Origin: an uncultured Candidatus Poseidoniales archaeon | Lineage (GTDB): Archaea; Thermoplasmatota; Poseidoniia; Poseidoniales; CAYMED01 | DNA length: 64,000 nt | Assembly: GCA_964389655.1 (NCBI GenBank) | Contig: CAYMED010000011.1 | Coordinates: 1 to 64,000, forward strand | Direction of reading: 5' to 3' | Shown: in pieces, positions 57,139 through 63,194 of the stretch | Numbering within the stretch: position 1 is the first letter of the stretch | How the letters are laid out: each line of letters opens with the position of its first letter | Notes under the pieces: generated by a model | Seen by the model: the letters and a program-made list of their open reading frames with translations, nothing else | Databases searched by the model: none | What the model was told of the DNA's origin: nothing | Program-made: the position numbers and the translations under genes

Positions 57139-58374
57139 TTATCCCTCCTTTCTAAATTGTTGCCCTACTTCTATGTATGTTGAAAAGTCGGCCGACTGGC
57201 TAAACTGCGTGATTGTGTCCTCGGGTAATTCAGACAAAAGACCATCGACGAGTGCAAAGAAATCACGGCGAACATCATTACTAGCCCCTTCGGGAGACCC
57301 CCCTACTTCTGAATATAGTAAGAAGTCGTCTGAAGAAATAAATTCCTCAATTCTTTCATCAGGGAGTTTTGTGAGTAAGTCGTCAACAATTGAGACAAAA
57401 TGAGCAAAATGGTCTGCAGGGGGCATATCCTTCCGTGCCGCTTTTGGTTTGGGGCGCTGGGTCGATTTTACTAAGTCCTCCATGGGTTTCTCCCCTGACA
57501 GTACCTCAAGAACTGCACGGCGTCTAGCGACAAGAGGCTTGAGTTGATTTCCAGCCTTCTCGATTTTGGCTGTCTGCCCCCTCTGTTTGGCTAAGCGATA
57601 ACGATCATGGAGGGGACGGATCTTTCTCTCAAGAGTTTCGATTTCACCGCGCAACTCTTCCTCCACTACAGGATCCAAGTGGGATGATGGCGCCTCATCC
57701 GTGCTATCCCCTCCGGTTGGGCTCTCACCAAGTTCTTGCGGGATTGTCTTAGATTCTGCCGCGCCAACTCCATCCTCGTCCGATGAATCTTGCATATCGG
57801 TCTCTTCTGGCCCTAGGTCTTCCGCATCATCTTCCCCGCCTAGCACAGTTTCAACCTCTTCAATCACTTCAGGGGTTCCTGAGGTGGCCCTTGTAGCCTT
57901 AATTTCGCGACCTCGTAGCACAATAAGCTCGCGATCGAGTTCTCGGCCAAAGCGAGATGAATATCTATCGAGAAGCGAACCGACTTCACCAGAGCCAAGG
58001 CGGTCAATTTGGCCATACATCTGTTTGAGAGGCTTTGAGCCTGTTCGCTCCCATAGGCTCGCATATCTTGTGTCGCGTGGTTTTGAGTCGCCCGAAGAGA
58101 TCACCTCTACCTCTACCTCCGCTTCTTCCTCACGATTCTTGCGTTTTGATCCTGTACGCCGAGCAATTTTGGGCAAGCCGAGATCCAAATCCTCAGGTGA
58201 TGGGGGTGGAGGGAGGCCCAATGCGGAAGGGGGGGGAGGGGGAGGGAGGTCTAAACCTGCAGGAGGAGGTGGTAAATCGCCCCCTTTCTTTGCACGCCGC
58301 CGCCCCAATGAATCGACTCCAACATGAATTGGACCCCCCATTGGTCTTGAATGTGTCCCGGAGGAGATACGCAT
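57139..58374 (-). CDS. Hypothetical protein: polyproline, acidic linker, coiled coil and duplicated C-terminal helical module
   Basis: LPPPPAGLDLPPPPPPSALGLPPPPSP; two repeats of VDxLLxxLPxxxIxxFxxSxDFxxYxEVG; abuts priS. Confidence 0.8.
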   Translation of the reverse strand: MRISSGTHSRPMGGPIHVGVDSLGRRRAKKGGDLPPPPAGLDLPPPPPPSALGLPPPPSPEDLDLGLPKIARRTGSKRKNREEEAEVEVEVISSGDSKPRDTRYASLWERTGSKPLKQMYGQIDRLGSGEVGSLLDRYSSRFGRELDRELIVLRGREIKATRATSGTPEVIEEVETVLGGEDDAEDLGPEETDMQDSSDEDGVGAAESKTIPQELGESPTGGDSTDEAPSSHLDPVVEEELRGEIETLERKIRPLHDRYRLAKQRGQTAKIEKAGNQLKPLVARRRAVLEVLSGEKPMEDLVKSTQRPKPKAARKDMPPADHFAHFVSIVDDLLTKLPDERIEEFISSDDFLLYSEVGGSPEGASNDVRRDFFALVDGLLSELPEDTITQFSQSADFSTYIEVGQQFRKEG

Positions 58375-59606
58375 CAGGGATTGGCTTCAGATAGCGGCAA
58401 TGCCCAGCGTTTTAAAACTAGAAATGCCGCTTCGGAAGTATTCGCTGCTATTTTCACGCCCTCGTGTATCGAAATTTCACGCTCTAACAGGCGAACTTTT
58501 GCTGATGGAACAATTCCGATCAGGTCCCATTCCTCATCATTGGAGATCGCTATTGCTTCTGAAAGTGGGTCAAATGGGTCGACACCATCTGGGTCCAATC
58601 GGCTGAGCGGCAATTCAGTTACACGGAAGCCGGCTTTGCCATTTATGCTCCCAACAGCACGGATCAGCCTCTTTGTATCTATTGTTACAACCTCGTCGAT
58701 TTCCCCCGCATCACCTCTAATGAGCATTGCACTCCCCTTGAGAAGGTCAAGAAAGGTATCCTCATGCCTGCTCGCTTGGTTCTTTGTCCCCCCCAATAAT
58801 TTGAGATTCCCTTGCTCAACGCGTTTTCGAATGCTTACAACTTTTAACCGTTCAGCAAGAGTTTCGACATGCTTGAATGGCCTCGGTTTTAACCCCGTTC
58901 CCGCTGAAGTTACAAGCATTTGGTCTAATTCCTTTTTTGCCTTGGAACCCCTAGACTCTGAGTATGTGCATAGAAGTTCGATCACCTGCCGCATTCCTTG
59001 GGAAACACGGTCTGCCCATCCTGGTCTTGCCAACGAATTGTGGCGCAAAGAGCGGTGCAAAATCACCTCCGGCTTGAGTTCTTGACCGCGGATATATTCC
59101 ACAACCTCCCGCCGTGATTTCTCATCCATCGTCAGCAATTCGGGATCTCTGACATGGATGTGGAAGCCACGGTGGCCAGAAAATGTAACTTGGACATGCT
59201 TTGCATCAAAACCCAATTCTGCACTCAGAAATGTATCCCATAGCCGCCAAGTCTCACGCTGAATGTGGGTGATCATGGATTCAAAATCAAGGTCGTCGAC
59301 CCCTTCTAGGTGATCTCCGTCAAGATCGAAAATAAGGTCTGCACCCAACCAAATTTTGTCATCCATCTTTCGTTCACTTGGCTTCTCATAGTAGGATGTG
59401 CTATGAAACAAGCCAGAGGGTGGACGGCGAATAAGTTCGGCACGCAAGTCTTCGATATCTCTGTACATCCGATGGCGGATGACGCCACGGCTGTCGAAGG
59501 GAAAAAGGCCCCATTCCCGAAGAGCAAGGCGCGGGGGAGGGGGTAGTGATGCTGTCCGATAATATTCGCCAACGAGGTAGGCAATCCGTGTCCGCCCACC
59601 AATCAT
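58374..59606 (-). CDS. priS: DNA primase small (catalytic) subunit
   Basis: REWG, RHR, ADLIFDLDGD, FSGHRGFHIHV, IDEVVTIDTKRLIR..GSINGK. Confidence 0.95.
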   Translation of the reverse strand: MIGGRTRIAYLVGEYYRTASLPPPPRLALREWGLFPFDSRGVIRHRMYRDIEDLRAELIRRPPSGLFHSTSYYEKPSERKMDDKIWLGADLIFDLDGDHLEGVDDLDFESMITHIQRETWRLWDTFLSAELGFDAKHVQVTFSGHRGFHIHVRDPELLTMDEKSRREVVEYIRGQELKPEVILHRSLRHNSLARPGWADRVSQGMRQVIELLCTYSESRGSKAKKELDQMLVTSAGTGLKPRPFKHVETLAERLKVVSIRKRVEQGNLKLLGGTKNQASRHEDTFLDLLKGSAMLIRGDAGEIDEVVTIDTKRLIRAVGSINGKAGFRVTELPLSRLDPDGVDPFDPLSEAIAISNDEEWDLIGIVPSAKVRLLEREISIHEGVKIAANTSEAAFLVLKRWALPLSEANP

Positions 59607-59624: not shown

Positions 59625-59825
59625 TTACGGGTGATAAACGATAGGGTCTGGCTCAACACCATCTGTGGAGGGAGTCGCGCCAGTAATTAATTGGTAATGC
59701 TCCCAGCAATAATAGCGATCATCGACGACCATTGCTTGACCAAAAGTCAGACGGATCGAGCATTGATCACAGCGAACACCTATCTGCCCAGAATTGGGTT
59801 CAATACACATTGACTCACGGACCAT
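59625..59825 (-). CDS. Small zinc-finger protein (C-x2-C-x17-C-x2-H)
   Basis: RCDQCSIRLTFGQAMVVDDRYYCWEHY; co-oriented with and just upstream of priS; start set at ATG 59825. Confidence 0.65.
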   Translation of the reverse strand: MVRESMCIEPNSGQIGVRCDQCSIRLTFGQAMVVDDRYYCWEHYQLITGATPSTDGVEPDPIVYHP

Positions 59826-59906
59826 GTGCATCCGATGGCAACATGGTTCATGGAGTTGCGGGTCAAAGAACACAGTATTCATTTCATAGTGGCTCATCGT
59901 TAGGTT

Positions 59907-60380
59907 GTGGCGGCTCCAATTGACCCCTCTGGATTTGGATCAATCGACCCTGCGCCTTCCGCAAAACAAGGCAGCATTGAAGATCACCGCTCAGTTCTTT
60001 TGGATGCCGGCCTGCCCCTATTTACGCGATTTAGATCGTTATTTGCACTGAGGAATACAGGGGGTGTTGACGCAGTAGCTGCCTTGTGCGAGGCTTTCTC
60101 AGACAACTCTGCCCTTCTTCGCCATGAAGTTGCCTATGTACTGGGGCAAATGCAAGATTCATCTGCAATTGCTTGTCTCTCTAGTGTGCTAAGCAATCTT
60201 GACGAGCATGTAATGGTCCGCCATGAAGCTGCTGAGGCACTTGGTGCGATTGGGAACCCTTCTGTGAGGGGTTTGTTACAAAAGCACACAAAGGATCACT
60301 CTGTTGAGGTATCGGAATCCTGCTTGGTTGCTCTAGATCTACTTGATTGGCTCGAGTCAGATCGCCTGGAATACGCATAG
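59907..60380 (+). CDS. HEAT-repeat protein, half-length deoxyhypusine hydroxylase (DOHH)-like
   Basis: SIDPAP, PLFTRFRSLFALRN, SALLRHEVAYVLGQMQ, MVRHEAAEALGAIG, ESCLVALD, EYA all match motifs I recall from eukaryotic DOHH. Confidence 0.88.
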   Translation: MAAPIDPSGFGSIDPAPSAKQGSIEDHRSVLLDAGLPLFTRFRSLFALRNTGGVDAVAALCEAFSDNSALLRHEVAYVLGQMQDSSAIACLSSVLSNLDEHVMVRHEAAEALGAIGNPSVRGLLQKHTKDHSVEVSESCLVALDLLDWLESDRLEYA

Positions 60381-60386
60381 TCCCAA

Positions 60387-63194
60387 TCATTTCCGCGTCC
60401 ATAGCCAGTCATCAGTTGCCCATATTTTACGCAGTTCCTCGAATAAAATGACCGTTATTGCAACCCCTATCAATATAGGCCATCGATCCCAAGACAGCGG
60501 GATTGTTGACAAGAAATCGCCAATGGTGATCCCAACAAATGGGATCGGGATATTTGCCCCTTGGACTGTGATGAAAAGTAGAAAGCAACAGATGAGAAAT
60601 GAGATATTTATCGCTTTATTGGAAAAAAGGCCGAGACTCAGTATGCTTCTAGTGGTATTCCTGCAATTCATCACATTAAAGAGCTGAAATAGTATGAATA
60701 CTGCAAATGCTGCCGTCATGGCTTCACTAACATTTGCAGTGGCGAAGTCACCACCTGCAAAGACGTAGAAGACTGCTAGCGTACCAACTGTCATGACTGC
60801 GCCAAGATAGGAAATAAGTGCCATATCATTTGGCGTAGGGAGTCCTTCATTGCTAGGCCTCGGCGGCTCTTTCATGACTTCCCCATGGCGCTTTTCAACA
60901 CCTAGCGCCACGGCAGGGGGGCCATCCATTAGGATGTTGATCACCAATATTTGGGTTGCTGTGAGAGGGAGGGGCCACTGGAATACGAAAGTCGCCAAGA
61001 CAATAATCGCAACAGCAGCCACATTGGTGGATATCTGGTATCGAGCGAAATTACGAATATTGGTGTAAATTTTTCTTCCCTCTTCGACTGCTTGTACAAT
61101 ATTCGCGAAATTGTCATCCTGCAAGACCATGTCTGCTGCATCCCTCGCTACATCCGTTCCCGAAGTTCCCATTGCAATTCCAATATTTGCTCTGGCAAGG
61201 GCAGGGGCATCATTTACCCCGTCTCCAGTCATGGCCACTACATGGCCCATACCCTGTAATTGCTCAACGATCCGCATTTTCTGCTCAGGCGTAACCCGAC
61301 AGAACGCAGCAACATCTTCGATGACATCTACAAGTTCATCATCACCCATCTCTGCCAACTTAGCTCCAGTCAGGACAAGTTCATGTCCCTCGCGCATAAT
61401 TCCTACTTCCTGAGCAATTGCGCGTGCTGTTGCTTCTTGGTCACCTGTGATCATTTTTACCGAGATACCTGCTAGGTTGCACCTTTCCACTGCGTCAGCG
61501 GCCTCTTTACGTGGCGGGTCCATAATGCCTATTAGGCCTAGCAGAGTTAAGTTAGATTCAATCTCATCGACATTATCAAAATTTTCGCCGTCCTCAAGTG
61601 GGCGAGCGCAAATGCCCAAAACGCGCAGTGCATCTTTGGCAAAGCTTGTCTCAAGTTCGGATATCTTCTCACGTGCGCTTTTGTCAAATTCAGTAGTACT
61701 ACCGCCCATTCGCACATGTGATATTCGATCCATCATGAATGAAACCGCTCCCTTCGTAAACACCCAGTGGGTGTCATCAACAAGGTGAATTGTGGACATC
61801 CTTTTTCTGTCCGAATCGAAGAAAAGCTCATGCACTCGGGGACGTGCTTCACGCACGCGTTCAGGGGTTGCACCAATCCGCGCGGCAAAGACTGCTACTG
61901 CAATGTCAGTTGGGTCTCCAATCCCCTCCCATCCACTAGATCCGCGTCTGAGTGCTGCATCATTACACAAGCCAGTACAACGCACAAAATTTCGCAGGTC
62001 ATCATCTTCAAGTGCGAGTGCTCGCATTTGATCCCCATCAAATTCACCCTCGGATGTCTTGACCTTGCCATGTACCCCCTCTCCAACTACTTCCCAAGTT
62101 TCACCATCAAAGCATATGCGGCGAACAGTCATCTCATTCCTTGTAATTGTCCCCGTTTTGTCAGTACAAATGACAGTTGTTGAACCAAGTGTTTCAACTG
62201 CTTTCATCCGTCGAATAATTGCCTTATGCCGGGCCATATTACGCATACCTAAAGCAAGAGTGATGACAAGTATGATGGGCAATCCTTCAGGGACAATTGC
62301 AACAAATATGGCGATGGCGATCAGAAACTGGTCAAATGCGGCGCGACGCAGTTCATTCCCACGTGCTCCTTCAATCCAGGCGAATGTAAGTTCAAAAAGA
62401 ACCAATGCAACGGCAATCACAATTGCAATTGTGCCAAGGAATCGGCCAAGAGATTCCAACTTTATCTCCAAAGGAGTTTTGGGCGTTTTTGTTCCGCTAA
62501 CCCCACCGGCAATATGCCCCAATTCGGTTTCCATCCCTGTGTGAGCTACAACGGCAATACCCCGTCCAGCAACTACTGTGGAACCCATGTGACCCATGTT
62601 CACGCGATCATGTAAAAGCGCACCACCATCAACCACGTCCGCTCGTTTTTTGATGGGTTTCGACTCACCAGTAAGGGATGATTCGTCGATTCGTAGTTGA
62701 TAGGCCTCAAGAATTCTCACATCAGCAGGTACATTTTGGCCCGAACTAAGGTGAACAAGATCCCCTGGGACTAACTCGACTGTTGAGACGTTCAATTCCA
62801 CGCCATTTCTTGTAACCACGCAGTTGCTGACTGACATTTTCTTCAGAGCCTCCATTGCCTGCTCTGCTTGATTCTCTTGCCAATATCCGAAAAACGCGTT
62901 TCCCGTGAGGACGAGCCAGATGAAAATCGAATCTCCAAGTTCCCCGATTAGCACTGAAATTACACTTGCGGCCAGTAGTAAGTAGACCATAGGATCCTGA
63001 AATTGTGCGATAAATTTGAGCCAAGCGGGAGTTGGTTCTGGCTCATCCAATTGGTTTAGACCATACTCTTGACGCCTCTTTTCCACCTCGGGCGAAGAGA
63101 GGCCATCTTTGGTAGAACCAAGGGCATCAAGGCTGGCATCAGGGGGAAGGGCATAAACGCGTTTTTCCTCCTTTGGCAACTGTCCACCCACCAC
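60387..63194 (-). CDS. P2A-type cation-transporting ATPase (Ca2+/Mn2+, SPCA-like)
   Basis: DESSLTGES, VPEGLP, CTDKTGT, KGA, MDPPR, MITGD, MTGDGVNDAPAL, INILMDGPPA. Confidence 0.94.
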   Translation of the reverse strand: MVGGQLPKEEKRVYALPPDASLDALGSTKDGLSSPEVEKRRQEYGLNQLDEPEPTPAWLKFIAQFQDPMVYLLLAASVISVLIGELGDSIFIWLVLTGNAFFGYWQENQAEQAMEALKKMSVSNCVVTRNGVELNVSTVELVPGDLVHLSSGQNVPADVRILEAYQLRIDESSLTGESKPIKKRADVVDGGALLHDRVNMGHMGSTVVAGRGIAVVAHTGMETELGHIAGGVSGTKTPKTPLEIKLESLGRFLGTIAIVIAVALVLFELTFAWIEGARGNELRRAAFDQFLIAIAIFVAIVPEGLPIILVITLALGMRNMARHKAIIRRMKAVETLGSTTVICTDKTGTITRNEMTVRRICFDGETWEVVGEGVHGKVKTSEGEFDGDQMRALALEDDDLRNFVRCTGLCNDAALRRGSSGWEGIGDPTDIAVAVFAARIGATPERVREARPRVHELFFDSDRKRMSTIHLVDDTHWVFTKGAVSFMMDRISHVRMGGSTTEFDKSAREKISELETSFAKDALRVLGICARPLEDGENFDNVDEIESNLTLLGLIGIMDPPRKEAADAVERCNLAGISVKMITGDQEATARAIAQEVGIMREGHELVLTGAKLAEMGDDELVDVIEDVAAFCRVTPEQKMRIVEQLQGMGHVVAMTGDGVNDAPALARANIGIAMGTSGTDVARDAADMVLQDDNFANIVQAVEEGRKIYTNIRNFARYQISTNVAAVAIIVLATFVFQWPLPLTATQILVINILMDGPPAVALGVEKRHGEVMKEPPRPSNEGLPTPNDMALISYLGAVMTVGTLAVFYVFAGGDFATANVSEAMTAAFAVFILFQLFNVMNCRNTTRSILSLGLFSNKAINISFLICCFLLFITVQGANIPIPFVGITIGDFLSTIPLSWDRWPILIGVAITVILFEELRKIWATDDWLWTRK

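What the first reader, a model, noticed from the sequence alone, without database searches (positions are those of the whole stretch)
59907..60380. Half-size deoxyhypusine hydroxylase in an archaeon: candidate homodimeric, pre-duplication DOHH
Seen: a 157-aa protein with two His-Glu motifs, H73-E74 and H106-E107, 33 residues apart. It is bounded by a divergent gene upstream and a convergent gene 6 bp downstream, so no second half is present. Established: eukaryotic DOHH is about 300 aa, made of two pseudo-symmetric HEAT-repeat halves, each with two HE motifs 33 residues apart (human H56/H89 and H207/H240), which together hold an O2-activating diiron centre that completes hypusine on eIF5A. Archaea have aIF5A and deoxyhypusine synthase, but DOHH homologues are generally reported as absent, and Euryarchaeota are thought to stop at deoxyhypusine. 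From recall, this protein mixes N-half features (RFR.LF, AF.D.SALL.HE, LGQMQD..AI, EALGAIG.P) with C-half features (S.DPAP, LLD...PLF, FALRN.GG, ESC.VALD, terminal YA). Inference: a homodimer rebuilds the four-HE diiron site, giving this aerobic archaeon a full hypusination pathway. It may represent the unduplicated ancestor of DOHH, or a eukaryote-derived half gene. The polyproline-rich proteins in this window offer a rationale.
Basis: partly seen in the sequence, partly recalled or inferred. Interest (0 to 1): 0.9.

Follow-up and report, generated by a model that had tools for sequence, protein, structure and literature searches.

The report
Half-size archaeal deoxyhypusine hydroxylase
This marine archaeon, like many oxygen-breathing relatives, carries a conserved gene for exactly one half of the eukaryotic two-iron enzyme that finishes the hypusine modification of translation factor 5A; papers say archaea lack this enzyme, and two copies probably pair up to do the job.

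Summary
Confirmed. 59907-60380 encodes an intact 157-aa protein matching each half of human DOHH (119 and 125 bits; model TM 0.89, rmsd 1.1 A), far above any other HEAT protein. Both His-Glu motifs are invariant. There is no second half in this genome or in about 120 relatives' loci. The gene occurs in 109 of 401 Thermoplasmatota genomes, in 11 families and three classes; 104 of the 109 also encode a heme-copper oxidase. The genome encodes DHS and aIF5A. A homodimer model passes (0.83 vs 0.01 control) with both His at the interface, possibly from memory of DOHH. Most relatives carry the gene beside mqnD, but this genome has no mqnA/D, and several mqnD genomes lack the gene, which argues against a menaquinone role. 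Trees place the archaeal halves outside both the eukaryotic N- and C-half clades; branching order and root are unresolved. Best reading: homodimeric diiron hydroxylase of deoxyhypusine-aIF5A (about 0.7); no activity is shown. I found no paper describing it; automated pipelines already label it DOHH-like. This scan found it before on other DNA (61 notes, at least 59 genomes).

The parts
59907..60380 (+). Half-size DOHH homologue, 157 aa, four PBS-type HEAT hairpins (8 helices)
59940..59957 (+). SIDPAP leader (res 12-17), equal to the inter-lobe linker before the eukaryotic C-half; D14-P17 conserved in both archaeal clades; lies in the predicted dimer interface
60123..60128 (+). His73-Glu74, equal to human H56-E57 / H207-E208
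   Evidence: PMC9117371
60144..60146 (+). Gly80, invariant; equal to human G214 (H207+7), a deoxyhypusine-binding residue
60222..60227 (+). His106-Glu107, equal to human H89-E90 / H240-E241
59625..59897 (-). Divergent small Cys/His (zinc-finger-like) gene; homology starts near residue 12-21, so the true start may be downstream of 59897; context only
58374..59606 (-). Archaeal primase small subunit priS; conserved neighbour in Poseidoniales; context only
60387..63194 (-). Convergent P-type cation ATPase that bounds the gene downstream; context only

Best explanation
The protein is a single-lobe deoxyhypusine hydroxylase. Two identical chains associate about a two-fold axis, as the two lobes of eukaryotic DOHH do. 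This brings H73/H106 and E74/E107 of each chain together into the four-HE non-heme diiron site. The dimer binds aIF5A carrying deoxyhypusine at Lys37 (made by the genome's DHS), activates O2 as a peroxo-diiron(III) species and hydroxylates the side chain to hypusine. It is accessory rather than essential, and is lost in some genera. Shown: homology, fold, conservation, stand-alone size, presence of DHS and aIF5A, co-occurrence with aerobic respiration. Modelled: the dimer. Inferred: iron binding, substrate and catalysis.
For: It matches both halves of human DOHH; AF2 model pLDDT 92.5, TM 0.89, rmsd 1.1 A to 4D4Z. H73, E74, G80, H106 and E107 are conserved at 98-100% in all four groups: 112 eukaryotic-type N-halves, 112 C-halves and 125 archaeal halves. 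These include the substrate-binding positions E57/E208, E90/E241 and G214 (PMC9117371). Homodimer ipSAE is 0.83 in 3 of 3 runs against a best control of 0.01; the mark was reached by 20 of 30 solved homodimers and 1 of 23 monomers; runs agree in at least 69% of contacts; pLDDT at least 88; the interface holds H73, H106 and residues 9-17 (may reflect memory of DOHH). DHS passes the NF002294 cut-off (354 vs 350) and aIF5A passes TIGR00037. 104 of 109 carriers have a heme-copper oxidase, against 5 carriers among 228 genomes without one; none in the large oxidase-free families f5, f16 and f19, or in f6, which has no oxidase match over the cut-off (kin are not independent). DOHH has a single known substrate (PMC8153317).
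Against: No biochemistry and no cultured host. It is never adjacent to dhs or aIF5A in any locus checked. In Poseidoniaceae/Thalassarchaeaceae it sits after mqnD, once fused to it. It was not found in several Poseidoniales genera or in the other sampled family of the same class (f4, 0/10), all of which keep aIF5A. No spermidine synthase was found in this 93%-complete genome, so deoxyhypusine would need homospermidine or an agmatine route. Early surveys found little or no hypusine in Thermoplasmatales, which are not these lineages (PMC5178350).
Confidence: 0.7

Rival explanations
1. Homodimeric diiron oxygenase acting on another substrate, for example a step or side reaction of futalosine-pathway menaquinone synthesis.
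For: mqnD lies directly upstream on the same strand in about 95 Poseidoniales loci, and one genome has an MqnD-half-DOHH fusion.
Against: The two are uncoupled in both directions. The gene is present with no MqnA/D found in this genome, its congener, 5/5 f29 genomes, G087 and G099. MqnA/D is present without the gene in G002, G004, G012, G016, G030 and G038, and in the four of these inspected the gene is missing from the syntenic spot. No mqnD was seen next to the gene outside Poseidoniales. The eIF5A-binding residues are invariant.
Confidence: 0.14
2. It binds iron and/or aIF5A but is not a stand-alone catalyst: it needs a different partner lobe, or acts as a chaperone or sensor.
For: Human DOHH lobes have diverged from each other. 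The dimer prediction could be template memory.
Against: No second lobe in the genome. All catalytic and substrate residues are kept. Both ends of the chain (leader and last helix) that form the interface are conserved.
Confidence: 0.1
3. Origin rival: a half gene taken from an already duplicated stem-eukaryotic DOHH (probably the C-lobe with its linker), rather than a survivor of the pre-duplication state.
For: Features lean C. Found only in Thermoplasmatota in these searches. The free trees pair the Poseidoniales-type clade with N-halves and the deep clade with C-halves (98/85). The gene tree disagrees with the EF-2 tree, so transfer has happened.
Against: Nesting with tested crown C-halves or N-halves is rejected (p-AU 0.0005 and 0.007). 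N+C monophyly is not rejected (p-AU 0.17 and 0.50). N-type residues are retained. Two deep archaeal clades span three classes.
Confidence: 0.3
4. Generic PBS-lyase/NblB-type HEAT scaffold, gene fragment or contaminant.
For: Pfam gives only HEAT_2/HEAT_PBS; NCBI names it 'HEAT repeat domain-containing protein'.
Against: NblB 31.8 bits against a cut-off of 300, CpcE 17 against 330. CpcE/F structure TM 0.62 against 0.89 for DOHH. Intact and syntenic in many genomes.
Confidence: 0.02

Closest known systems
Eukaryotic deoxyhypusine hydroxylase (human DOHH, PDB 4D4Z/4D50; yeast Lia1; Drosophila nero; EC 1.14.99.29)
   Same: 46-48% identity in the structural alignment, the same four-hairpin lobe (rmsd 1.1 A), two HE motifs 33 apart, G214 equivalent, SVDPAP segment
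   Different: One lobe instead of two in one chain, so two HE motifs per chain; the site must form between subunits; archaeal; dispensable in some genera; activity untested
PBS-lyase HEAT-repeat proteins (CpcE/F, NblB, MTH187, alphaRep)
   Same: HEAT_PBS repeat fold
   Different: Far lower scores (at most about 35 bits per stretch, TM at most 0.69); no DOHH leader; they lack the His-Glu pairs in the alignments shown
Crenarchaeal hypusination (Sulfolobus aIF5A is hypusinated by an unknown enzyme, PMC6105217)
   Same: Same end product proposed in an archaeon
   Different: That paper found no DOHH homologue in Sulfolobus, so this gene does not explain crenarchaeal hypusine

Membership tests
DOHH (EC 1.14.99.29) | HEAT-repeat lobe homologous to DOHH, closer than to any other HEAT family | tested here: met
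DOHH (EC 1.14.99.29) | Eight HEAT repeats as a two-lobed dyad with four HE motifs in one chain | tested here: not met
   One lobe and two HE motifs in the window and in every archaeal locus read
DOHH (EC 1.14.99.29) | Four HE motifs converge at the lobe-lobe interface | tested here: inconclusive
   The homodimer model passes with H73 and H106 in the interface, but without metal, His-His distances were not reported, and it may come from memory
DOHH (EC 1.14.99.29) | Deoxyhypusine-binding residues (E57/E208, E90/E241, G214) | tested here: met
   E74, E107 and G80 invariant
DOHH (EC 1.14.99.29) | Substrate and upstream enzyme (IF5A with the GKH lysine; DHS) in the same organism | tested here: met
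DOHH (EC 1.14.99.29) | Two Fe per active site, peroxo-diiron intermediate | not testable with these tools
   needs purified protein
DOHH (EC 1.14.99.29) | O2-dependent conversion of deoxyhypusine-IF5A to hypusine | not testable with these tools
   only indirect: co-occurrence with heme-copper oxidase
CpcE/NblB PBS lyases | Family HMM cut-off | tested here: not met
   31.8 of 300 and 17.2 of 330 bits
Futalosine-pathway accessory protein | Co-occurrence with mqnA/D | tested here: not met
   uncoupled both ways

The most novel reading that the evidence does not exclude
These proteins are living homodimeric forms of the pre-duplication DOHH. Eukaryotes got the enzyme from an aerobic Thermoplasmatota-like donor of the 33-residue-spacing type (shared by Poseidoniales, f29 and both eukaryotic lobes, against 32 in the deep clade), then duplicated and fused it before LECA. 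Marine Group II archaea make true hypusine.
Probability: 0.35. Interest if true: 0.87.

Novelty: new variant of a known kind. Interest (0 to 1): 0.72.

Why it matters
Papers from 2016, 2018 and 2021 state that no archaeal DOHH orthologue has been identified (PMC5178350, PMC6105217, PMC8153317). If active, this would be the first archaeal DOHH that I could find described, and it would mean an abundant ocean archaeal group completes hypusination. It makes the origin of an O2-dependent eukaryotic translation enzyme testable. A symmetric 17-kDa homodimer would also be a simpler model for the unusually stable peroxo-diiron chemistry of a human disease and drug-target enzyme. It does not solve the Sulfolobus hypusine question.

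Tried and rejected
The GTDB scan with the single sequence found nothing because its peptide patterns were too specific; the alignment scan worked. No relative was found in IMG/VR viral contigs or PLSDB plasmids. The menaquinone role was tested and is disfavoured. Apparent longer ORFs in high-GC relatives are upstream start artefacts with one lobe only. I could not search Asgard, TACK, Halobacteriota or bacteria genome by genome: plasmid records give handles without relatives, so absence there is not shown. The two 'bacterial' hits (Yoonia, Salinimicrobium labels) sit beside the same mqnD-like neighbour as the Poseidoniales loci, in 1.9-Mb genomes, and are probably mislabelled or misbinned. Branching order among N, C and the two archaeal clades is unstable: none of the three resolutions is rejected (p-AU 0.17/0.50 and 0.225). 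No outgroup root was attempted, because generic HEAT repeats are too distant. The promoter scan was uninformative. Park 2006 and Park and Wolff 2018 were not held. No complex with aIF5A or Fe was modelled (one job only).

Full report
Observation. Window 59907-60380 (+) is an open frame of 157 codons from a GTG, with an in-frame TAG six bases upstream of the start, so it cannot extend 5'. A P-type ATPase converges on it with a 6-bp gap. A small Cys/His gene and priS diverge upstream. H73-E74 and H106-E107 are 33 apart. The genome holds one copy only. GC3 is close to that of its neighbours, and a congeneric genome has the same arrangement, so this is not a stray eukaryotic fragment.

Identity. 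The best solved relative is human DOHH (E 1.2e-72; 119.5 and 125.2 bits on the two halves), while alphaRep HEAT proteins give at most about 35 bits per stretch. NblB and CpcE models score far below their cut-offs. The AF2 model (pLDDT 92.5) superposes on 4D4Z with TM 0.89 and rmsd 1.1 A; CpcE/F gives 0.62. Across 112 eukaryotic-type N-halves, 112 C-halves and 125 archaeal halves, H73, E74, G80, Q81, R105, H106, E107 and E110 are conserved at 97-100% in every group. Human DOHH uses its four HE motifs for iron, and E57, E90, E208, E241 and G214 for the deoxyhypusine chain (PMC9117371); all have counterparts here. The two-lobed comparison sequences are mostly unnamed; those with names are eukaryotic.

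Host and distribution. Genome G005, in the same order as the window's genome, matches the coordinates of a record titled Poseidonia sp., so the host is a Marine Group II archaeon (Poseidoniales), in a third family. The gene is in 29 of 41 relatives, at 384 matched places in GTDB species genomes and in 109 of 401 Thermoplasmatota genomes from 11 families. These lie in three classes. Every locus read has one lobe. Two clades exist. One joins Poseidoniales with family f29 and has 33-residue HE spacing like eukaryotes. A deeper, diverse clade from high-GC genomes has 32-residue spacing. 104 of the 109 carriers encode a heme-copper oxidase, only 5 of 228 oxidase-negative genomes are carriers, and those five belong to mostly oxidase-positive families (counted by hand from the two tables). 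This fits an O2-dependent enzyme, though kin are not independent. Several aerobic families lack the gene, and some Poseidoniales genera have lost it cleanly from the syntenic spot.

Pathway context. The genome has a DHS that passes its family cut-off with the EAxSWGK lysine motif, a second DHS-like gene beside agmatinase, and aIF5A with the SKPGKHG loop. The second gene resembles the homospermidine-making SpeY arrangement described for Poseidoniales (PMC10407285). No spermidine synthase was found (genome 93% complete), so the aminobutyl donor is probably homospermidine or an agmatine route (inference). The gene is never next to dhs or aIF5A in the loci examined.

The mqnD question. In most Poseidoniaceae and Thalassarchaeaceae the gene follows mqnD, once as a fusion. 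This genome offers a natural test: it keeps the gene but has no detectable MqnA/D or MqnC/E. The same holds for MqnA/D in its congener, five f29 genomes and two others, while six genomes have MqnA/D without the gene. The linkage therefore looks positional, not functional.

Dimer. Two copies gave ipSAE 0.83 in all three runs against a best control of 0.01. The mark was reached by 20 of 30 solved homodimers and 1 of 23 monomers; runs agree in at least 69% of contacts; pLDDT is at least 88. The interface is symmetric and includes H73, H106 and the SIDPAP leader. Because human DOHH is a solved pseudo-dimer, the pass may come from memory; it shows compatibility, not binding.

Origin. In three trees with different samples, the C-halves and the two archaeal clades each form one group. 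N-halves do so in two trees; in the largest, two N rows fell among the C-halves. Forcing the Poseidoniales-type clade to join a chosen pair of crown C-halves or N-halves is rejected (p-AU 0.0005, 0.007). This argues against a recent transfer from those eukaryotic lineages; other placements were not tested. The order among the four groups is unresolved: the free tree often pairs N with the Poseidoniales-type clade, but N+C monophyly (p-AU 0.17, 0.50) and the third arrangement (0.225) are not rejected. Diagnostic sites are mixed but lean C. An EF-2 tree puts f29 with f48 and f33, which carry deep-type genes, and not with Poseidoniales, so at least one transfer occurred within Thermoplasmatota. 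A pre-duplication origin is thus compatible and, in my estimate, somewhat more likely (about 0.55) than loss of a lobe from a stem-eukaryotic gene (about 0.3); the direction of transfer is not shown. Other archaeal phyla could not be searched genome by genome.

Comparison with what is known. It works like DOHH by every sequence and structure test, but fails the family's two-lobed, four-HE single-chain architecture, so it is a variant and not a plain member. Papers read here state that no archaeal DOHH is known. Searches of the paper library found no description of this family; subscription journals are mostly not covered. JGI and ESM Atlas automatic labels already call relatives 'deoxyhypusine monooxygenase', while NCBI says 'HEAT repeat domain-containing protein'. 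This scan has noted the same family before, in 61 notes from at least 59 genomes; those notes are not independent evidence.

Verdict. A real, conserved, probably homodimeric half-DOHH of aerobic Thermoplasmatota. Hydroxylation of deoxyhypusine-aIF5A is the best-supported function (0.7), and one co-expression experiment would decide it. New variant of a known kind; interest 0.72.

Noticed in passing
L020:1483-2865 (G014): Single 460-aa ORF fusing MqnD-type (PF02621) to the half-DOHH; in G388 (L230:1158-2498) the upstream 286-aa ORF and the half-DOHH abut in frame, stop then ATG.
   Followed up: partly
whole genome G000 and congener G001: No MqnA/D found in either genome, and no MqnC/E in G000, unlike most Poseidoniales; the quinone pathway of this aerobic family is unexplained (genomes 93% and 83% complete).
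   Followed up: partly
L027 (G000:C6:51106-54990): Second DHS-family gene next to agmatinase (SpeY-like homospermidine route); no spermidine synthase found in the genome.
   Followed up: partly
window 59625-59897: Small Cys/His zinc-finger-like gene tied to priS in about 98 Poseidoniales loci; only weak LIM / PP0621 hits; possible primase-associated factor.
   Followed up: no
L163-L192 (aIF5A loci): Five of six non-Poseidoniales genomes lacking the half-DOHH have Glu at +3 from the modified lysine (GKHGE), while all 19 carriers checked have Ser, Ala or Gly; may be lineage history only.
   Followed up: partly
L198 (G270:C122): Half-DOHH copy with two in-frame stops: pseudogene or assembly error.
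   Followed up: no
L065, L075: Records titled Salinimicrobium and Yoonia carry the Poseidoniales-type mqnD/half-DOHH locus in 1.9-Mb genomes: probably mislabelled or misbinned MAGs.
   Followed up: partly
window 57139-58374: 411-aa acidic protein with polyproline runs and no Pfam hit; a similar proline-rich gene recurs beside priS in relatives.
   Followed up: no
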